In this document: positions 1 to 8,054 of the stretch, piece by piece
Position numbering within the stretch: the first letter of the stretch is position 1
Layout of the letters: each line of letters starts with the position of its first letter
UHGV virus genome: UHGV-0324772
Length of the DNA: 8,054 bases
Direction: 5' to 3' (one strand)
Source: a virus
Program-made: the position numbers and the translations under genes
The notes under the pieces: model-generated
The model's input: the letters and a program-made list of their open reading frames with translations, nothing else
Databases searched by the model: none
Told to the model about the DNA's origin: nothing

Positions 1-156
1 CAGAGCATCAACATTTAAGACACCTGTCTTATAGACCTGAGCCTGTGTTTTTTTCGCGGTGTCGATTTGTACAGCGGAAACATAAACCGCTTTACCTACG
101 CTCGAACCATCCCATACCACCAGTGCACCTGTTGCATCTTCTGGCAATACGGCTCT
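1..156 (-). CDS. Head decoration protein gpD-like fragment (partial; runs off the window start, N-terminal side closed by an in-frame stop at 157-159)
   Basis: Minus-strand frame open from 156 to 1 translates to LPEDATGALVVWDGSSVGKAVYVSAVQIDTAKKTQAQVYKTGVLNVDAL, which aligns by eye with lambda gpD ([36 protein letters not shown]...). No ATG start; not in the ORF track because it is partial. Confidence 0.35.
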
Positions 157-286
157 TCAGGGGATTGTAGACTATGGCGGTATTCAGGATCCGGAGCTAA
201 TCCGAATGGGGCTGACTAAAGCCGAACTTGCACCGAAAAACTATATTGTGCCTGGTGATCCGGCTATTGAATATGTGCAGACACAT

Positions 287-1051
287 TCAGCACCACAGCC
301 AATACCGGCCCGCATCAATCGAATCACCAAGGTCTTTAAGAGCCGTTTCCAGTTCGGAATTAGAACCACGACGGGTATCCAGAGCCTCTTTTATCGCTCT
401 GAATGAACGGTATTTCTTCCATACATTACCGCCCATAATGATGATATTAGTGACGCCCTCACTAAATTCTGCGTAGCTCTCAATATCATCATTTGGATCA
501 AAAGTTTCTTTATCCTTACCTGACCACTCAGCACCGCCAGACTGAGTGATGATATTTTGTGGTTTAATATTCCAGTCCAGCTCATAACGTTCAATACCAT
601 CGCCCTCAATGATATTTTTCCCCGTTGTGATTGCCTGAACGGCAAGCCATTCAATACGTGCACGAATAGCTTTAGCCTGATTTACAATCGCCTGTTTAAC
701 TTTAATATTACGCGCTCCAAAAGCATTGTATTGCTCAGGTGATACACCAGCAGGGCGCACAGCTAACTTATTTGGATCAATGCTGCTTTTCGGCTTCATA
801 TAGCCTGGACGAATTGTTTTTGATTCGTACCCTTCGTCACGTGAAACTTTACTACCCACCATAGGAGAACAAAACGCTGCAATTGGGATATTTGGATCGT
901 CGATTGTATCAAGAATAATATCGCGCGATTCAAACATTACCGAGCGAGTAAAAAACAAACTGGTAAACAACGCATTTAGTTGTTTTTGTACATCTACAGC
1001 ATTAACCACCTGTACAAGCTGGGTAGGCGAATATAAATCAACCATACGCAT
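287..1051 (-). CDS. Lambda gpE-like major capsid protein, C-terminally truncated (about 255 aa versus about 341 aa in lambda)
   Basis: Track ORF 287..1219. Residues from MRMVDLYSPTQLV onward align along the length with lambda gpE as I recall it (LFFTRS/LFFRES, PGYMKPK/PGYVKPK, ITQSGGAEWS/ITQSGGTEWS, DTRRGSNSELETALKDLG near-identical). Start set at ATG 1045 or 1051, with AAGAGG 6 nt upstream of 1045; the 58 upstream codons look like a stop-less extension. ORF stops at 287-289 right after the KDLG motif, so about 90 C-terminal residues are absent. Confidence 0.8.
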   Translation of the reverse strand: MRMVDLYSPTQLVQVVNAVDVQKQLNALFTSLFFTRSVMFESRDIILDTIDDPNIPIAAFCSPMVGSKVSRDEGYESKTIRPGYMKPKSSIDPNKLAVRPAGVSPEQYNAFGARNIKVKQAIVNQAKAIRARIEWLAVQAITTGKNIIEGDGIERYELDWNIKPQNIITQSGGAEWSGKDKETFDPNDDIESYAEFSEGVTNIIIMGGNVWKKYRSFRAIKEALDTRRGSNSELETALKDLGDSIDAGRYWLWC

Positions 1052-1954: not shown

Positions 1955-2000
1955 AGGCTTTATCTCACAGCAGTAAATTAAAATTTTTGCGTTTTAACCC

Positions 2001-2228
2001 TTCACCTGTTCACCTTTTGATATTTTCTCTTTTAATTCATAATGTTAATGGGTGAACAGTTTCACAAAAACTATTCACCAACTGTTCACCACTGTTCACC
2101 CTTGAAGCTCAATAAACAATCAAAAAGGTGAACAGTGAATAGTTTGGTGAACAGTTCATAAATAACTGTTCACCCTATAATATACTGATATAAAAGATAT
2201 TTATGACAGGGTGAACAGTGGTGAACAG
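2001..2228. repeat. P4-type type-I iteron cluster (TGTTCACC), putative cis replication region / origin bound by alpha protein
   Basis: Nine perfect octamers: TGTTCACC at 2007, 2083, 2093, 2167 and the complement GGTGAACA at 2051, 2127, 2146, 2210, 2220, plus degenerate copies (2001-2006, 2072-2079). An AT-rich stretch lies at 2176-2205. Sits immediately downstream of the alpha gene end, as crr does in P4. Confidence 0.8.
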
Positions 2229-2241
2229 TTATTCCATAAGT

Positions 2242-2686: not shown

Positions 2687-2687
2687 A

Positions 2688-3015
2688 GTGGTTGGCTTTT
2701 CGCTGATTATCATGCCGGATATGACCCGCTACGCTGGTGATGGGGCAGGGATTAAGGCCATTACAGGCGGTGACAAGGTGGCAATTGACCCGAAACACAA
2801 AGCCCCCTATTCAACGCGTATTCCGGCAGTAGTGCTGGCGGTTAACAATAACGCCATGTCATTCAGTGACCGCAGCGGGGGGATCTCACGTCGTCGGGTG
2901 ATATTCAATTTTTCGGAAGTTGTACCGGAGAACGAACGCGATTCGATGCTGGCGGAAAAAATAGAAGGTGAGCTGGCGGTAGTGATTCGTCATCTGCTTA
3001 CACGGTTTGTTTTTT
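2688..3015 (+). CDS. P4 alpha-type helicase-domain fragment on the opposite strand to the rest of alpha (probable misassembly or inversion)
   Basis: Track ORF 2688..3017. ITGGDKVAIDPKHKAPYSTRIPAVVLAVNNNAMSFSDRSGGISRRRVIFNFSEVVPENERDSMLAEKIEGELAVVIRHLLTRF matches the region after Walker B in P4/D5-type helicases. Its 3' end (2976-3013) is the reverse complement of 2649-2686 with one mismatch. The stop codon is formed partly by adapter bases. Confidence 0.6.
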
Positions 3016-3073
3016 AATGATACGGCGACCACCGAGATCTACACTCTTTCCCTACACGACGCTCTTCCGATCT
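3016..3073 (+). other. Illumina TruSeq universal (P5) adapter, 58 nt, exact: sequencing/assembly artefact
   Basis: AATGATACGGCGACCACCGAGATCTACACTCTTTCCCTACACGACGCTCTTCCGATCT read directly at 3016-3073, preceded by TTTTT (3011-3015). Confidence 0.97.
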
Positions 3074-4064
3074 ACCAGCAGAGGGGGATTCGCTGGATGA
3101 ATAACTGCCAGTCGTACCGGTTCGCCAGCACCATGAATAATGCCGCCAGTACGCGATCTGCCTTGCGGTCATTCTCAGCCACCGAACGGCGCAACCACTT
3201 CCAGAAATTCGGCGCATGTGTTGCCAGCGTTTCCCCCTCTGCTGGTGGGCTGAAAGGTAATTCACTGGCAATTAACAACCAGTCGTTTTTGTTATGCTCC
3301 CGAAAATTACCAGTTCTGGTATCAAATACCCCGTTACTGAATCCAATCAGGTTACGGGCTGTATTCCCCATTACAGGCAAACTTAACTTCATGGTATCTA
3401 CCGCCGATTTAATAGCGTTCTGCGAATAGCTGATCTCCGCATCAATGAAAATCTGCGCCATAGCACGCTGTAACTCTTTATCCTGAACCGGCTCCCATAC
3501 AACGCCGTTGTAATGATGAACGGTGTCAGAGTCGGCATTGATTGCCAGTTCGCCGCCGTAATGTGCAAGGAGAACTTCACCGCGCTGGCTGGCCCCCATC
3601 TGATTCAACGCCAAAGATGAAGCACGCTCGTCATTTTTGCGCTCTGCCTTCTTCACTGGCAGTTCAATCACCAGACTTTCCCCATGCTCCGCTTCAGCTT
3701 TTAGGCCGACAAGGCGCGGAGTCCAGTCTTCAGGCTCTCGATCAACAAAGCTACGGTAACAACGTGCTTCCTTTACGCCTGCAATAGCAAGTAATGTCGC
3801 AACCTTCGTCAGACTTTTCTCTGCAATCTTTCCGGCACGATAAACACGCACATAATGACGGCCTTCATCGATAATTTGCATATCATCCAGGTTTTCCAGT
3901 TGTTCCGTACCCAGAATGACTGGTGGTGTATCATCTGCTGCAATATGCTTACCTGCCCATTCATTCCATTCTTTTGCATGGCTCCAGGCATCACTGCCAG
4001 CAAAAATGATGACTTCCGTCATTTTGTCGCGCGGTTGGTATTTTAAGTTCGGAGCACGTTTCAT
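3072..4064 (-). CDS. P4 alpha-type primase/helicase, N-terminal primase region (reading frame cut off at the adapter junction)
   Basis: Track ORF, 330 aa. Call rests on continuity with the alpha helicase and C-terminal fragments, position in the operon and the adjacent P4-type iterons; an early EVIIFAGSDAW segment is primase-like but not a confident motif match. The terminal stop (3072-3074) is created by adapter bases, so the real protein continues. GGAGG RBS 6 nt upstream; start overlaps the upstream stop (ATGA at 4061-4064). Confidence 0.75.
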   Translation of the reverse strand: MKRAPNLKYQPRDKMTEVIIFAGSDAWSHAKEWNEWAGKHIAADDTPPVILGTEQLENLDDMQIIDEGRHYVRVYRAGKIAEKSLTKVATLLAIAGVKEARCYRSFVDREPEDWTPRLVGLKAEAEHGESLVIELPVKKAERKNDERASSLALNQMGASQRGEVLLAHYGGELAINADSDTVHHYNGVVWEPVQDKELQRAMAQIFIDAEISYSQNAIKSAVDTMKLSLPVMGNTARNLIGFSNGVFDTRTGNFREHNKNDWLLIASELPFSPPAEGETLATHAPNFWKWLRRSVAENDRKADRVLAALFMVLANRYDWQLFIQRIPLCW

Positions 4065-4351: not shown

Positions 4352-4576
4352 TTATTCTCCGGTATAGCTCTGGTCGTGTATTTTTATAGCTTCATCCAGC
4401 TCTTTGATGACAGGATCAAGTAACGTAATTAACGCTCCAGCTAAATTAGCATCCCGTTCATCGTGTTCCGCATTTGTTGTCCCATCAAGCCAGGTTGATA
4501 AGATTTCTCGCATATTTTTGCCACAAACGAGCGCGTTTTCAGCATGTGTCAGCACTTTAAAATAAAGATCATTCAT
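4352..4576 (-). CDS. Hypothetical small protein (74 aa), alpha-operon member
   Basis: Track ORF; start overlaps the upstream ORF end by 8 nt; acidic, helical-looking sequence. Confidence 0.45.
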   Translation of the reverse strand: MNDLYFKVLTHAENALVCGKNMREILSTWLDGTTNAEHDERDANLAGALITLLDPVIKELDEAIKIHDQSYTGE

Positions 4577-4934
4577 GGCACACCTCCTGACGAATACGGG
4601 CGGCGAATATCATCACGTAGCCAGTTGGGGATTGCAGCCGGGCTTCCTGTTCGCTGGCGGCCTCGATGTGTATTACGCGTGGTTGTGCGGTGCTCAGGGC
4701 GATAAAACGCCAGATGAAATTGTTTTCGCATTTCTGAATAAACAGCGTGTTTTCTTCACGCCCTTTCCAGAAAGCCGCAGTATAGCCCATCTCCTTAACC
4801 ATCTTGCGGGCATCAACCAGCGTGTCAGCGGCTACATGTACCGTAGTTGCTCCATCTGCCATGCGGTCGTGGTGTAGTGCCAGAAAGGTGTATATAAATT
4901 TAGGGTGAGTTTGGGTATGCTGTGTTCCAGCCAT
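4569..4934 (-). CDS. Hypothetical protein (121 aa), first gene of the alpha operon
   Basis: Track ORF; GAGG 8 nt upstream of ATG 4934; sits downstream of the predicted minus-strand promoter. Confidence 0.5.
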   Translation of the reverse strand: MAGTQHTQTHPKFIYTFLALHHDRMADGATTVHVAADTLVDARKMVKEMGYTAAFWKGREENTLFIQKCENNFIWRFIALSTAQPRVIHIEAASEQEARLQSPTGYVMIFAARIRQEVCHE

Positions 4935-4996
4935 AATCGTTACCTCATTTAACGGGTTGGTTAGACGCCTCGATGGTGTTCCCGCACGTCGAGGCG

Positions 4997-5076
4997 TTGC
5001 ATTTTCCTAAACACGTATGTAATGTGTCATCACACATTAACACATTACATCGGGTGTAATTGACGTGTCAACACAC
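4997..5076. promoter_or_regulatory. Divergent promoter region with repeated operator-like half-sites (ACACATTA / TGTAATGT)
   Basis: Plus strand: TTGCAT (4997-5002), 17 nt, TAATGT (5020-5025). Minus strand: TTGACA (complement of 5066-5071), 18 nt, TAATGT (complement of 5042-5047). Inverted repeat atgtaatgtgt (5017-5027) / acacattacat (5040-5050), plus acacatta (5032-5039) and gtgtaatt (5054-5061). Confidence 0.4.
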
Positions 5077-5244
5077 AAAAATCAAAGACGTGGTAATCCT
5101 CCGTTCCAGTTTCGGTTAGATCCTGAGTTGAGGGAGTTGATGGAGCAAGCACAGCAAGTAGATGGAGACGAATCTTTAGCAGCCTGGATTAAAAGGATTA
5201 TTCGCAAAGAACTACAGCAACGCGGATATGAAGTCAAAATTTAA
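5065..5244 (+). CDS. Small ribbon-helix-helix (Arc/CopG-like) putative transcriptional regulator; start uncertain (GTG 5065 or ATG 5140)
   Basis: Below the track's length cut-off. Frame open from 5041 to TAA at 5242-5244. Translation ...PPFQFRLDPELRELMEQAQQVDGDESLAAWIKRIIRKELQQRGYEVKI has a beta-strand then two helices, as in RHH proteins. Divergent from the alpha operon, convergent with the TIR-like gene. Confidence 0.4.
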   Translation: MSTHKNQRRGNPPFQFRLDPELRELMEQAQQVDGDESLAAWIKRIIRKELQQRGYEVKI

Positions 5245-5257
5245 CAGATAATATTTC

Positions 5258-5290
5258 ATATAGAGCCATTTATCTCGAATGGCTCTATAT
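5258..5290. terminator. Perfect 13-bp stem hairpin between convergent genes (putative bidirectional terminator)
   Basis: atatagagccatt (5258-5270), loop tatctcg, aatggctctatat (5278-5290); followed on plus by gattttta. Lies between the RHH stop (5244) and the TIR-like stop (5320). Confidence 0.55.
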
Positions 5291-5319
5291 CTATGCAGAT
5301 TTTTAGTTCAAAGAATTTA

Positions 5320-6195
5320 CTAAACTGCGTAACCAGTAGCTCGCAAGTCTTTAATAATGCTATATGCTACTTCTTCAATAGAAGAATTGAATTTTTTATA
5401 AATAAGACCATTCAAATCACTTGGAATCACTACATCACCTGTGTATAGACAACAAACCTTAGAACGACCTAATTTCCCTACGAAATAACCAAATTCAAAC
5501 ATTACATTTGGTCGTGCACGTAACTCCTTTTCTCTTTCATTATCAGGTAAAGAGTCTTGCGGCAATAAATAAGCGATCTCATCAGGTGTGAGAAGAATGA
5601 ATGCGAAACCAACATCACTATTTGCTTCAAATTTCTCAATCACTGTCTGGCCTACATCAGCTTGCCTATGGAGAACAATAGGTTCTAAGCCAATTTCTCT
5701 TAAAAACACCTCTAAGTTGGTTTTTGATATTTCATCTCTTCCATGAACAATGAATACTTTTTTGGTTTTTACCGCTGAACTCTGAGGTACTTCAATATTT
5801 TCTTCAACAACTTTGGAAGATATAGGAATTAACTCCAGTCGCTCCATAATCGACTCTAGTTTTCTTATCTTACTCTGGAGTTTACGCGTAGCCTCACTGA
5901 TTTTTTCTCCCAAGGAAGTCTCGTACAATGAAATAACACCAAATGCCCCACCTTCATATTCTTCTTTGAAATCATCATTTGTGAAACTACGCTTCAGTAG
6001 CTCAGCATTAAAATCACTCCATTTCCTGTAATCAGCATTAAACAGCTCCAAGTCACTATTGTTATTTATGCTTTTCTGTAGGAGTAATAATCCTTTTTGA
6101 ATTCTGTCTTGAATTTTATCTTTCATATCATCTCTTGATATGATTAGTTCACAAACAGTTTTCATTTCTACGCTATTTTTTTTTCGAGTAGCCAT
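5320..6195 (-). CDS. TIR-like (COG4271/PF10137-type) domain protein with an unassigned N-terminal domain; candidate anti-phage NADase effector
   Basis: Track ORF, 291 aa. Residues about 145-291 carry the pattern I associate with TIR-like nucleotide-binding proteins: KKVFIVHGRD, GLEPIVLHRQ, TVIEKFE, VGFAFILLTPDE, RARPNVMFEFGYFVGKLGR, IPSDLNGLIY. N-terminal about 140 aa is helical with no TM segment or known motif. Good RBS (AAGGGTG, 5 nt, ATG). Visibly AT-rich compared with flanks. Confidence 0.7.
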   Translation of the reverse strand: MATRKKNSVEMKTVCELIISRDDMKDKIQDRIQKGLLLLQKSINNNSDLELFNADYRKWSDFNAELLKRSFTNDDFKEEYEGGAFGVISLYETSLGEKISEATRKLQSKIRKLESIMERLELIPISSKVVEENIEVPQSSAVKTKKVFIVHGRDEISKTNLEVFLREIGLEPIVLHRQADVGQTVIEKFEANSDVGFAFILLTPDEIAYLLPQDSLPDNEREKELRARPNVMFEFGYFVGKLGRSKVCCLYTGDVVIPSDLNGLIYKKFNSSIEEVAYSIIKDLRATGYAV

Positions 6196-6231
6196 GCTTA
6201 CACCCTTTTATATAACAATTTACTACAACAT

Positions 6232-6459
6232 TTATGTCCGCCATTCCCCCCTAATCCATGCCTGAACTTCGGAGAGACGGTAAGCTACCGCAGTAGCGCC
6301 AATCTTGATCCGCTTAGGAAATTTTCCTTCCTTCTCCAGCTTCCAGCGTGTGCTGTTCGCAAGAGTGGTTAGCTCCCGACATTCTTTCTCACGGATCATA
6401 CGATCAATGTTAGGAATGTACTCCAGACCCTTTTTATCAACAATTGCCATTTTTTTCAT
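6232..6459 (-). CDS. alpA: AlpA/Vis-family small DNA-binding regulator or excisionase-like protein
   Basis: 75 aa; the central segment resembles AlpA-family (PF05930-type) prophage regulators; lies 1 nt downstream of the integrase stop on the same strand. Confidence 0.7.
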   Translation of the reverse strand: MKKMAIVDKKGLEYIPNIDRMIREKECRELTTLANSTRWKLEKEGKFPKRIKIGATAVAYRLSEVQAWIRGEWRT

Positions 6460-6460
6460 G

Positions 6461-7696
6461 TTAACCAGCCTTTTGTTTGAGGATTGTCACTTTTGAATCA
6501 GCACCTGCGATGCTATTGAGATATGTAGTCCAGAGTTCCAGAGCATCCAGTTTTTTAGCCATAAACTTACTCCGATTGTAAACACCTGCCACGCCAGGTA
6601 GCGCATGGCCTAACAGTTGTTCTACTACATAAAATTCAACACCGAGATCACTTAGATGAGTAGATAGCGTTCTTCTAAGGTCGTGTAGTGACCATTGTTT
6701 TTCATGGCCCAAACGTTTACCGATTTTCCCCCCAATCTTGCTTACGCTTTCTCTAATTCGCAGACTTCCCAGCACATAACCAGTATGTTTTGTCTCTTCG
6801 TGAACATCCGTTACCCACTGTCGTAGAATTTCAGGTACTGGTCTGACGATTTCAACACCAGTTTTTGAGTGATCTTTTGGTACAGTCCAAACCCAACTTT
6901 CGAGATCCCATTCGCTCCATTCTGATAATCGGGCTTCACTCATTCGACATCCAAATACTGTACAAAGCACAAACATTTTTCGCGTGTATTCAGACATTAG
7001 TTTTAAATCAGGCTCGACAAAAATTGCCTTCCAGAGCTGGCCGAGTTCGGCTTCATCCAGAACCCGATCCCGCTTACCTGCAATCTGCCCCACATCACTC
7101 ATGCGCAAATCCTTTAAAGCATCACACGTCGCGTACTGGCGTACCCGACAAAAACGAAGAGCTAATTTAGTGTCAGAAAAAACATACGCCGCCATAACTG
7201 GTGCATTACGTTTAATTCGGTCAAAACAGTCCAGCCATTCATATAGGTGAGTGTCATTTACGGGCAAATGACCGATATAGGGAAAGATATGCTTTCGAAA
7301 TCTGCCAAGCGTTACAGCATGAGTTTTACGACGCACCTTACAGTAATTTTCATACCAGTAATTTAGTGCATCCTCCACTGTGACCGGCTTTAAGCGTTCT
7401 TCAGCCTGAATCTTAATCTGGATACGCGGATCACGTTTGTCAGCCAACCAACCACGGCACTCGTCGCGCTTTTCCCTTGCCTGTTTGAGTGACATATCAG
7501 GATATTTACCCAACGTTAGCCAGACCGGAGCAGCCCGGCCACCTGCTAACCTGTAGAAGAAAACAAAGCTCACAGCCCCTTTAGTACTCACACGAATAGA
7601 AAGCCCCTTTCCATCAGCAATGGTGATCTGCTTTTCTCTGGGTTTCCCCAGATATCCTTTAAGCGCTTTGTCGCTCAGTTTGTTCTCGCCAGCCAT
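6461..7696 (-). CDS. int: Tyrosine site-specific integrase, P4-like family
   Basis: Track ORF 6461..7747; likely start at ATG 7696 (MAGENKLSDKALKGYLGKP...ADGKGLSIRV resembles the P4-type N-terminal arm-binding domain). C-terminal catalytic signatures HDLRRT and LLGH...GVYNRS (Tyr). Confidence 0.9.
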   Translation of the reverse strand: MAGENKLSDKALKGYLGKPREKQITIADGKGLSIRVSTKGAVSFVFFYRLAGGRAAPVWLTLGKYPDMSLKQAREKRDECRGWLADKRDPRIQIKIQAEERLKPVTVEDALNYWYENYCKVRRKTHAVTLGRFRKHIFPYIGHLPVNDTHLYEWLDCFDRIKRNAPVMAAYVFSDTKLALRFCRVRQYATCDALKDLRMSDVGQIAGKRDRVLDEAELGQLWKAIFVEPDLKLMSEYTRKMFVLCTVFGCRMSEARLSEWSEWDLESWVWTVPKDHSKTGVEIVRPVPEILRQWVTDVHEETKHTGYVLGSLRIRESVSKIGGKIGKRLGHEKQWSLHDLRRTLSTHLSDLGVEFYVVEQLLGHALPGVAGVYNRSKFMAKKLDALELWTTYLNSIAGADSKVTILKQKAG

Positions 7697-7828
7697 TTTT
7701 AGCCCCAAAAAGCAATACAAGCTGCAATACAGAGATGATTGCAACACACAGATAACGAGGAAAATTCAGTGAAAGCGCCAGATAAACTTATTCTTTATTA
7801 TCAAAAGATTAAGTGTAAAAACCAGCAA

Positions 7829-8054
7829 CTACACGAAAGCCTCAGAAAGCCATGCTAAGTGCTTCGGCTTGACATATCCCGGTGTAAATTCAGAGGTGGA
7901 GCCGCCACGGGAGCGGATAACCTCACCGGAAACAATCGGCGAAACGTACAGCGCCATGTTTACCAGTCCCGGAATTTGTGAGAGATAGACTTTCTCCGTG
8001 GTGAAGGGATAGCTCTCACGGAAAAAGAGACGCAGAAACAGCGGATCAAACTTA
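7829..8054 (-). pseudogene. Lambda gpE (major capsid) N-terminal fragment, truncated; start lies beyond the window end
   Basis: Minus-strand translation from the window edge, KFDPLFLRLFFRESYPFTTEKVYLSQIPGLVNMALYVSPIVSGEVIRSRGGSTSEFTPGYVKPKH, matches lambda gpE residues about 17-82 as I recall them, then runs into 9 unrelated codons and a stop at 7829-7831. Confidence 0.7.

What the first reader, a model, noticed from the sequence alone, without database searches (positions are those of the whole stretch)
5290..6231. Compositional island: the TIR-like gene is markedly AT-rich relative to flanking genes
By eye this segment is dominated by A/T-rich codons (many AAA, AAT, TTT, ATT), whereas integrase, alpha and the capsid genes look near 50% GC. 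That fits recently acquired cargo rather than satellite backbone.
Basis: seen in the sequence. Interest (0 to 1): 0.4.

Follow-up and report, generated by a model that had tools for sequence, protein, structure and literature searches.

The report
AT-rich TIR defence gene in satellite
The AT-rich stretch is real and is a swappable cargo gene: a stand-alone TIR-type, probably NAD-destroying, candidate anti-phage protein that sits in a variable slot of a known kind of E. coli phage satellite living inside its helper prophage's capsid gene. It is an ordinary example of a known pattern.

Summary
The TIR ORF (5320-6195, minus strand) has GC 0.350 and GC3 0.271. Its neighbours are alpA 0.465, int 0.450 and the Icd-like gene 0.516. 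Maximum-likelihood segmentation puts the island at 5226-6235.

The window is an E. coli helper-embedded PICI of the published 11capE type, inserted in the major capsid gene of a lambdoid prophage. The TIR gene occupies a variable slot just downstream of alpA. Elements whose flanks are at least 98% identical carry about 9-10 different inserts there, and homology always breaks at window position 6241. The five alternative cargo genes I measured are all AT-rich (GC 0.31-0.36).

The protein matches Pfam PF10137 and, over its full length, the PADLOC candidate PDC-S35. It keeps the Cap12 active-site residues (R228, N230, E234), is under purifying selection, and has no conserved partner gene.

The most likely mechanism is inferred, not shown: a helical N-terminal sensor activates the TIR NADase, which causes abortive infection.

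"Cargo, not backbone" is supported. "Recent" holds only as cassette turnover. The family is AT-rich in every host examined, and 79-89% relatives sit in the same slot of satellites whose integrases have diverged much further.

This is a new member of known kinds and of modest interest.

The parts
5226..6235 (.). Compositional island (GC 0.338). It covers the TIR gene and its two short spacers.
   Evidence: Maximum-likelihood two-breakpoint segmentation; sliding GC.
5320..6195 (-). Cargo gene, 291 aa: a stand-alone TIR-like protein that matches the PADLOC candidate PDC-S35.
   Evidence: Pfam PF10137 at 1.2e-33; PADLOC PDC-S35 at 6.9e-67 over the full length; phrog_16442 at 3.8e-133, function unknown; annotated 'TIR domain-containing protein' in RefSeq; dN/dS 0.12 against relatives.
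5776..6195 (-). N-terminal all-helical domain (aa 1-140). It is the proposed sensor or regulatory module and has no Pfam family.
   Evidence: AF2 model built with an alignment gives pLDDT 85-95 over most of aa 20-122 (dip at aa 84-87), helices 21-39, 46-70 and 95-122. An exhaustive search found 880 representative relatives, some fused to TIR_2, GGDEF, a hydrophobic probably transmembrane tail, or other TIR-like domains. It evolves faster than the TIR domain (dN 0.28 against 0.03).
5335..5760 (-). C-terminal TIR domain of the Cap12/PycTIR type (aa 146-287).
5494..5514 (-). Codons for R228-P-N230-V-M-F-E234, the predicted NADase active-site motif.
   Evidence: Aligns to RDNVVFE in solved Cap12 chains. 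In SfSTING, R78, N80 and the catalytic E84 are active-site residues (PMC9402430). R228, N230 and E234 are invariant in 45 homologues.
6196..6231 (-). 36-nt AT-rich spacer between the alpA stop and the TIR start. It contains an AAGGGTG Shine-Dalgarno-like sequence, and the gene is co-oriented with int-alpA.
   Evidence: Read directly from the sequence. No promoter-like site was found in it.
5258..5290 (.). Perfect 13-bp-arm hairpin with a 7-nt loop between the convergent genes orf59 and TIR. It is probably a bidirectional terminator.
   Evidence: the repeat finder inverted repeat I1; sequence read.
4988..6240 (.). Variable slot (hotspot) of the satellite. The right homology breakpoint is fixed at 6241. 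The left breakpoint falls between 4716 and 4987, depending on the relative.
   Evidence: blastn of the window against four relatives. About 9-10 insert classes occur among 60 elements whose flanks are at least 98% identical.
5065..5244 (+). orf59: a small Arc-like/YlcI-YnfO-like ribbon-helix-helix protein, convergent with the TIR gene. It is probably the satellite's regulator rather than a partner of the TIR protein.
   Evidence: phrog_228 Arc-like repressor at 1.6e-5; NCBIfam YlcI_YnfO_N at 1.3e-3, below cut-off. Diverged alleles occur next to other cargo genes. It is absent next to TIR homologues outside satellites.
6232..6459 (-). alpA (excisionase/regulator). This is backbone and forms the right edge of the slot.
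   Evidence: Pfam Phage_AlpA at 6e-15.
6461..7747 (-). Tyrosine integrase of the capsid-gene-targeting (E:Phage_cap_E) group. RefSeq annotates 411 aa, starting at about 7696.
   Evidence: Pfam hits. The int-alpA segment is 98.9% identical to that of E. coli NRG 857C, host of the published 11capE element.
4569..4934 (-). Icd-like gene. This is backbone to the left of the slot.
   Evidence: NCBIfam phage_ICD_like at 8.8e-22.
7859..8054 (-). 5' fragment of the helper prophage's lambda-E-like major capsid gene, interrupted by the satellite. The att core lies at about 7860-7869.
   Evidence: RefSeq annotation of the split capsid gene in L001. The 10-bp block TGCTTGGGTT occurs at both junctions in L001. 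The window reads TGCTTCGGCT at that position.

Best explanation
The AT-rich island is one cassette in a variable cargo slot of a helper-embedded PICI satellite of the 11capE type, which is integrated in the major capsid gene of a lambdoid helper prophage of E. coli. The slot lies directly after alpA and holds a different gene in each sublineage, almost always AT-rich.

This cassette encodes a 291-aa stand-alone protein of the PADLOC candidate family PDC-S35. It has a conserved helical N-terminal domain joined to a Cap12/PycTIR-type TIR domain with an intact active site.

Shown here:
- the composition of the island;
- its status as cargo in a hotspot;
- the domain identity and the TIR fold;
- conserved catalytic residues;
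- purifying selection;
- the absence of a conserved partner gene.

Inferred:
- The N-terminal domain senses an infection cue, or relieves autoinhibition.
- This drives TIR-TIR assembly.
- The assembled TIR hydrolyses NAD+, and the infected cell arrests or dies before a competing phage completes its cycle (abortive infection). That would protect the lysogen population and so the helper-satellite composite.
- The low GC is a trait of mobile defence genes of this family, not a sign of a recent arrival from a low-GC donor.
For: Composition.

Identity of the element: the window is 99.9% identical to E. coli W284, where the element splits a prophage major capsid gene. It has the same backbone as NRG 857C, the type host of 11capE. 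The element is described in PMC10111431.

Hotspot: the alternative inserts include a 178-aa hypothetical protein, an AbiC-like protein, a 305-aa hypothetical protein and DUF2971+SWIM. The five cargo genes measured have GC 0.31-0.36. The right breakpoint is fixed at 6241. There are about 9-10 insert classes among 60 elements with flanks at least 98% identical. TIR is in 37 genomes and int-alpA in 179.

Stand-alone status: full-length relatives at 57-62% identity in Aeromonas, Pseudomonas and Plesiomonas have unrelated neighbours.

Modular N-domain: it is fused elsewhere to TIR_2, a hydrophobic (probably transmembrane) tail, GGDEF and other TIR-like domains.

Defence context: the full element carries a second AT-rich locus (DUF262/GmrSD_N plus a RiboL-PSP HEPN protein) that resembles PD-T4-2/NsnA.
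Against: I found no experimental evidence for anti-phage activity or NADase activity of this family. PDC-S35 is only a candidate, and no paper in the searched library names it. The trigger is unknown.

The N-terminal domain is unusually conserved for a phage sensor, at about 60% whole-protein identity across genera.

Several of the alternative inserts have no detectable defence signature, so 'defence hotspot' is only partly demonstrated.

The AF2 model is moderate (pLDDT 77, pTM 0.47), and the relative orientation of the two domains is unreliable.
Confidence: 0.62

Rival explanations
1. The low GC marks a very recent import from a low-GC donor. This is the first reader's reading taken literally: composition as a time stamp of acquisition.
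For: GC3 is 0.27, against 0.39-0.54 in the flanking genes. All 37 E. coli copies are at least 99.6% identical. The flanks of TIR-less relatives differ by 2% or less.
Against: Family members are AT-rich in every host examined, including loci whose surroundings are 54-62% GC. Relatives at 79-89% identity sit in the same slot of satellites whose integrase is only 81% identical at nucleotide level (dS for int about 1.5), and they are still at GC 0.36-0.37. So low GC persists over long residence.
Confidence: 0.15
2. The TIR protein is part of an addiction or toxin-antitoxin pair with the convergent small ribbon-helix-helix gene orf59, and the pair stabilises the satellite rather than defending against phages.
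For: orf59 has weak VapB-antitoxin-like and Arc-like matches. The TIR-orf59 pair is kept together in K. oxytoca and E. coli satellites that carry TIR relatives at 79-89% identity.
Against: orf59-like YlcI/Arc-like genes are also present next to unrelated cargo. TIR homologues in Aeromonas, Pseudomonas and Plesiomonas have no such neighbour. orf59 is divergently placed from the Icd-like gene and replication genes, with operator-like inverted repeats upstream, which fits a satellite regulator.
Confidence: 0.07
3. The TIR protein serves the satellite-helper relationship itself: interference with, or timing of, the helper's lytic cycle. It would be expressed by helper late transcription reading into the embedded satellite.
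For: The gene is co-oriented with int-alpA and with the helper late operon, and lies only 36 nt downstream of alpA with no promoter-like site in the spacer. PMC10111431 argues that helper late transcription passes into the embedded satellite.
Against: The gene is dispensable for the satellite type: about four fifths of close relatives lack it. The same family occurs as a lone chromosomal gene outside any phage context.
Confidence: 0.1
4. The TIR domain makes a signalling nucleotide, as Thoeris ThsB does, for an effector encoded elsewhere. Alternatively it is an orphan effector awaiting a CBASS or Pycsar signal.
For: PF10137 TIR domains are effectors of CBASS and Pycsar.
Against: There is no cyclase, CD-NTase or ThsA-like gene in the window or in the full element. 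There is no STING, SAVED or cNMP-binding domain, and the Cap12 equivalog models score 35-42 bits against a cut-off of 450. No neighbour is conserved across genera.
Confidence: 0.05

Closest known systems
Helper-embedded PICI Eco567.11capE of E. coli NRG 857C (Tommasini, Mageeney and Williams 2023, PMC10111431)
   Same: It has the same integration target, the lambda-E-like capsid gene of a lambdoid prophage. Its int-alpA segment is 98.9% identical. It has the same replication genes (Icd-like, DUF4222, primase, SSB), its own capsid and decoration genes, and the same distal DUF262+HEPN locus.
   Different: In the slot after alpA, the prototype carries a 178-aa hypothetical gene and a 100-aa YlcI allele in place of the TIR gene and orf59. 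The paper calls this region a 'Bro zone' and does not mention TIR, cargo or defence genes.
PADLOC phage-defence candidate PDC-S35 (single-gene candidate)
   Same: Full-length HMM match at 6.9e-67. It is a single gene with no conserved partner.
   Different: I found no published validation, so the name adds no mechanism.
Cap12 (TIR-STING, TIR-SAVED) of CBASS and PycTIR of Pycsar
   Different: There is no cyclic-nucleotide-binding domain and no cyclase partner. The N-terminal domain is an unrelated helical module, and the Cap12 equivalog models are far below cut-off. It may work like these proteins, but it is not a member of those systems.
Defence hotspots of P4-like satellites and P2 phages (Rousset et al. 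2022, PMC9122126)
   Same: Conserved flanks enclose fast-changing cargo that includes TIR-containing single-gene systems, carried by a satellite.
   Different: It is a different satellite family with a different slot position (after alpA rather than the P4 hotspot). The TIR protein validated there is a TIR-NLR with STAND and TPR domains, not this architecture.

Membership tests
Pfam PF10137 CAP12/Pycsar-effector TIR domain | Score above the Pfam gathering threshold | tested here: met
   116.1 bits against a cut-off of 24.7, covering aa 146-270 and profile positions 1-118 of 119.
Pfam PF10137 CAP12/Pycsar-effector TIR domain | TIR (flavodoxin-like) fold | tested here: met
Pfam PF10137 CAP12/Pycsar-effector TIR domain | Catalytic glutamate and the Arg/Asn that bind the substrate | tested here: met
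   R228, N230 and E234 align to SfSTING R78, N80 and E84 and are invariant in 45 homologues.
Pfam PF10137 CAP12/Pycsar-effector TIR domain | NAD+ hydrolase activity | not testable with these tools
   Needs a biochemical assay.
PADLOC PDC-S35 | Full-length match to the family HMMs | tested here: met
   PDLC05005 at 6.9e-67, aa 39-291 against profile positions 10-257 of 264. Four further PDC-S35 models score 1e-41 to 1e-60.
PADLOC PDC-S35 | Single-gene system with no obligatory partner | tested here: met
   Neighbours are unrelated in Aeromonas, Pseudomonas, Plesiomonas and the satellites.
PADLOC PDC-S35 | Protection against phage | not testable with these tools
   No paper in the searched library names the family.
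CBASS (Cap12 effector) / Pycsar (PycTIR effector) | Adjacent CD-NTase or pyrimidine cyclase | tested here: not met
   None among the ORFs of the window or the annotated full element.
CBASS (Cap12 effector) / Pycsar (PycTIR effector) | Cyclic-nucleotide sensor domain (STING, SAVED or cNMP-binding) fused to the TIR domain | tested here: not met
   The N-terminal 140 aa are helical and match no Pfam family. The NCBIfam Cap12 equivalog models score 42 and 35 bits against a cut-off of 450.
Thoeris (ThsB TIR) | Linked ThsA-type effector | tested here: not met
   There is no such gene in the element, and the window protein had no ThsB match in PADLOC.
Helper-embedded PICI, E:Phage_cap_E group | [quoted passage not shown] | tested here: met
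   The capsid gene is split in W284, NRG 857C and four other genomes, and all late genes and the element lie on the same strand. Window 7859-8054 is the 5' fragment of the helper capsid gene.
Helper-embedded PICI, E:Phage_cap_E group | Integrase of the site-specific subclade, followed by alpA | tested here: met
   98.9% nucleotide identity over int-alpA to the type strain NRG 857C.
Helper-embedded PICI, E:Phage_cap_E group | Zone order: integration, dynamic zone, replication, late | tested here: met
   int-alpA, then the slot, then the Icd-like gene, DUF4222, primase, ori and SSB, then capsid and decoration genes.
Helper-embedded PICI, E:Phage_cap_E group | Excision and mobilisation after helper induction | not testable with these tools
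   Shown experimentally only for the prototype (PMC10111431).
Mobile-element defence hotspot | Conserved flanks with many unrelated inserts | tested here: met
   About 9-10 insert classes among 60 elements with flanks at least 98% identical, with a fixed breakpoint at 6241.
Mobile-element defence hotspot | Inserts are recognisable defence genes | tested here: inconclusive
   PDC-S35 and an AbiC-like protein (putAbiC, 2.8e-16) are clear. The DUF2971 and SWIM matches to PDC models are weak (1e-4 to 5e-5). The 178-aa and 305-aa inserts have no match.

The most novel reading that the evidence does not exclude
The conserved helical N-terminal domain of this protein may be a previously undescribed, portable infection-sensing or activation module. 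I found it fused to two different TIR families, to a hydrophobic (probably transmembrane) tail, to a SieB-like tail and to a GGDEF cyclase. On this reading the slot after alpA in helper-embedded satellites is a defence hotspot whose cargo guards the very prophage the satellite sits in. Expression might be coupled to helper late transcription reading into the satellite.
Probability: 0.3. Interest if true: 0.55.

Novelty: new member of a known kind. Interest (0 to 1): 0.3.

Why it matters
It shows that helper-embedded satellites, described in 2023 without any mention of defence cargo, have a sharply bounded, fast-turning-over slot for AT-rich accessory genes next to alpA. In the complete element there is a second such locus at the far end. 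That makes these small elements a convenient place to look for single-gene defence candidates. It also gives a natural setting in which to test whether satellite cargo spares or targets the helper.

The TIR protein is a compact, untested candidate NADase whose N-terminal module is reused with other effectors. That reuse offers a handle on how such effectors are switched on.

The general pattern is already well established: AT-rich mobile defence genes sitting in satellite hotspots.

Tried and rejected
- A single-sequence AF2 prediction was useless (pLDDT 41). It was replaced by an alignment-based model.
- The word-indexed homology search with the N-terminal 140 aa returned only three fragments. 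The exhaustive search was needed.
- The afdb50 fold library was unavailable.
- The promoter and terminator consensus scans of 4800-6600 found nothing above shuffled expectation. The hairpin at 5258-5290 was found by the repeat search instead.
- Rfam found no family in the window, including the C4/isrK immunity RNAs reported in some PICIs.
- Literature searches for PDC-S35, COG4271, the RefSeq accession and HE-PICI defence cargo found no characterisation. Three TIR-related papers were checked and do not cover this architecture.
- I rejected the idea that the island is an artefact of the chimeric assembly, because the identical segment is in 37 complete genomes.
- I rejected the idea that it is a non-coding AT-rich regulatory region or origin, because it is an intact ORF under purifying selection. 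The real origin is at about 1996-2234.
- I rejected a P4-type identity for the element, because it sits in a prophage capsid gene and matches 11capE.

Full report
**Observation.** Segment 5290-6231 has GC 0.344, against 0.461 for the rest of the window. The ORF 5320-6195 on the minus strand has GC 0.350, with GC1 0.469, GC2 0.312 and GC3 0.271. Its neighbours are alpA 0.465, int 0.450, orf59 0.422, the Icd-like gene 0.516, the primase pieces 0.49-0.50 and SSB 0.564. Only 0.6% of 942-bp windows are as low or lower, and the minimum starts at 5226. GC3 differs from the pooled other genes with Fisher p = 2e-8. A two-breakpoint maximum-likelihood segmentation places the island at 5226-6235, with GC 0.338 inside and 0.470 and 0.454 outside. 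That is the gene plus its two short spacers.

The shift is largest at third codon positions, so it is a nucleotide-level bias and not an effect of amino-acid content. Two qualifications apply. The capsid gene (0.413) and int (0.450) are not near 50%. The window also has other AT-rich patches.

**What the window is.** The window is 99.9-100% identical to E. coli chromosomes. In strain W284 the element is about 11 kb and interrupts the major capsid gene of a lambdoid prophage. The annotation shows a capsid gene missing its N-terminus on one side and one missing its C-terminus on the other, and TGCTTGGGTT occurs at both junctions.

In the direction of transcription the element carries:
- int, alpA, the TIR gene and a small convergent gene (orf59);
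- the Icd-like gene, two small ORFs, primase, a small ORF and SSB;
- its own capsid and decoration genes, and a second AlpA-like gene;
- a DUF262 plus HEPN pair, beyond the window.

This is the helper-embedded PICI (HE-PICI) of the E:Phage_cap_E group described by Tommasini, Mageeney and Williams (PMC10111431). The int-alpA segment is 98.9% identical to that of the type strain NRG 857C, which has the same backbone. That paper calls the region after alpA a dynamic 'Bro zone'. It does not mention TIR, cargo or defence.

**Cargo or backbone.** The 987-bp TIR segment occurs in 37 of 5426 complete E. coli genomes, always at 99.6% identity or better, and no diverged copies were found down to blastn sensitivity. 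The adjoining int-alpA segment occurs in 179 genomes.

In four relatives, homology to the window runs at 98-99% up to position 6241, which is 7 nt inside the 3' end of alpA, and then stops. It resumes at 4716-4987. Between these points the relatives carry one of the following:
- a 178-aa hypothetical gene (GC 0.313);
- an AbiC-like gene (GC 0.323);
- a 305-aa hypothetical gene (GC 0.343);
- a DUF2971 gene (GC 0.307) together with a SWIM gene (GC 0.361).

A query made of the two flanks alone found 65 genomes in which one place covers at least 80% of the query. Among the 60 listed, all at least 98.1% identical, the span lengths and annotations fall into about 9-10 classes: TIR in 3, the 178-aa type in about 22, AbiC-like in 11, DUF2971+SWIM in 8, the 305-aa type in 6, two 'hypothetical+SWIM' sizes in 4 each, and two singletons. 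So 4988-6240 is a genuine variable slot, and the cargo genes I measured there are all AT-rich. The compositional right boundary (6235), the alpA stop codon (6232-6234) and the homology breakpoint (6241) coincide.

**Is it recent?** Only in a limited sense. Turnover is fast relative to backbone divergence: flanks differ by 2% or less, and the TIR copies are nearly identical. But relatives of the TIR protein at 89% identity (Klebsiella oxytoca) and 79% identity (E. coli) occupy the same slot, next to the same small gene, in capE-type satellites whose integrase is only 81% identical at nucleotide level (dS about 1.5). Those copies are still at GC 0.36-0.37.

Full-length relatives at 57-62% identity are AT-rich wherever they sit. 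In Aeromonas hydrophila the gene is 0.388 in a locus that is otherwise 0.622, where it is a lone gene between core metabolic genes. In Pseudomonas paralactis it is 0.401 in a locus that is otherwise 0.542. Low GC is therefore a persistent trait of this mobile gene family and not a clock.

**The protein.** Residues 146-270 match Pfam PF10137, the Cap12/Pycsar-effector TIR domain, at 1.2e-33. The whole protein matches the PADLOC single-gene candidate PDC-S35 at 6.9e-67 and phrog_16442 of unknown function. The family is large: 4658 hits, mostly 290-296 aa.

The gene is under purifying selection: dN/dS is 0.12 overall, 0.04-0.07 in the TIR domain and 0.10-0.15 in the N-terminal domain. The N-terminal domain accumulates about ten times more amino-acid change in the E. 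coli comparison.

There is no cyclase, CD-NTase, ThsA or other conserved partner, and the Cap12 equivalog models are far below cut-off. The protein is therefore not a CBASS, Pycsar or Thoeris component.

**The N-terminal domain is modular.** An exhaustive search with residues 1-140 found 880 representative proteins. Most have the same architecture. Others join the domain to:
- a TIR_2 domain (P0169);
- a GGDEF domain (P0185);
- a duplicated N-domain followed by a long hydrophobic, probably transmembrane, tail (P0189);
- other TIR-like domains (P0164, P0181);
- a TIR domain followed by a SieB-like tail (P0221).

This pattern fits a sensor, regulatory or assembly module that is reused with different outputs.

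**Expression signals.** The TIR start codon is 36 nt downstream of the alpA stop and is preceded by AAGGGTG. No promoter-like site was found in the spacer. A perfect hairpin with 13-bp arms at 5258-5290 separates the TIR gene from the convergent orf59.

orf59 is an Arc-like/YlcI-like ribbon-helix-helix protein with operator-like inverted repeats upstream. Diverged alleles accompany other cargo genes, and TIR homologues outside satellites lack it. I therefore read it as a satellite regulator and not as a partner of the TIR protein.

**Most likely mechanism (inferred).** An infection cue acts on the N-terminal domain. The TIR domains then assemble, NAD+ is hydrolysed, and the infected cell arrests. 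This would protect the lysogen and the helper-satellite composite from competing phages. Rival readings are a toxin-antitoxin or addiction role, helper interference or timing through late-transcript read-through, and a signalling TIR. Each has some support but is less consistent with the gene being stand-alone and dispensable.

**Comparison and novelty.** The backbone is a known element type. Defence hotspots in satellites are known from P4 and P2 (PMC9122126). The protein family is already listed as a candidate, and RefSeq annotates the gene as a TIR domain protein. Three points were not found in the literature I could search:
- the sharply bounded cargo slot after alpA in these helper-embedded satellites;
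- its AT-rich content;
- the modularity of the N-terminal domain.

Overall this is a new member of known kinds. The compositional island itself is an ordinary signature of mobile accessory genes.

Noticed in passing
window 2687-3096: The primase gene is disrupted by an assembly chimera. Bases 2687-3009 are an inverted copy of a primase segment (L001 11904-12226). They are followed by TTTTTTAATGATACGGCGACCACCGAGATCTACACTCTTTCCCTACACGACGCTCTTCCGATCT at about 3010-3073, which I recognise from memory as the Illumina universal adapter. Normal sequence resumes at 3097. Complete genomes have an intact 606-aa primase, so the split 'alpha' ORFs in the window are artefacts.
   Followed up: partly
window 142-321: A second rearrangement relative to every matching complete genome. 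Bases 142-321 are an inverted copy of L001 9287-9466, and about 255 bp (L001 9142-9286 and 9467-9576) are missing. This truncates the satellite's capsid gene (346 aa in the reference, 310 aa here) and removes the capsid/decoration gene junction. It is probably another chimeric-assembly artefact.
   Followed up: partly
window 1996-2234: The other strongly AT-rich patch (GC 0.328), downstream of the primase gene, contains at least ten copies of the iteron GGTGAACAGT/ACTGTTCACC in both orientations. It is very probably the satellite's replication origin. It is AT-rich for a different reason than the TIR gene.
   Followed up: partly
window 7859-8054; L001 5350-6138 and 17115-17360: The element sits inside the lambda-E-like major capsid gene of its helper prophage and carries its own diverged capsid and decoration genes. 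The window's right end encodes MALYVSPIVSGEVIRSRGGSTSEFTPGYVKPKH, the helper capsid fragment up to the junction. The att core in the window (TGCTTCGGCT) differs at two positions from the one in W284 (TGCTTGGGTT).
   Followed up: yes
L001 6295-8270 (outside the window, far end of the same element): This is a second AT-rich cargo locus (GC 0.31). It holds a DUF262/GmrSD_N protein (PADLOC NsnA 2e-59, PD-T4-2_A 7e-39), a RiboL-PSP HEPN protein and a 64-aa ORF. It is present in both W284 and the prototype NRG 857C.
   Followed up: partly
window 4965-5077: The divergent control region between the Icd-like gene and orf59 has nested inverted repeats: ATGTAATGTGT/ACACATTACAT, TAATGTGT/ACACATTA and ACGCCTCGA/TCGAGGCGT. 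They look like operators for the Arc-like orf59 product.
   Followed up: no
P0185, P0189, P0221 (relatives of aa 1-140): The N-terminal helical domain also occurs fused to a GGDEF diguanylate-cyclase domain. It occurs duplicated in front of a multi-helix hydrophobic tail. It also occurs in a TIR protein that carries a SieB-like (superinfection exclusion) C-terminal tail.
   Followed up: partly
L007 15488-16393; L005 2546-3367: DUF2971 genes appear at both cargo positions of related satellites: in the slot after alpA in some, and at the distal end in others. This suggests that cassettes move between the two loci.
   Followed up: no
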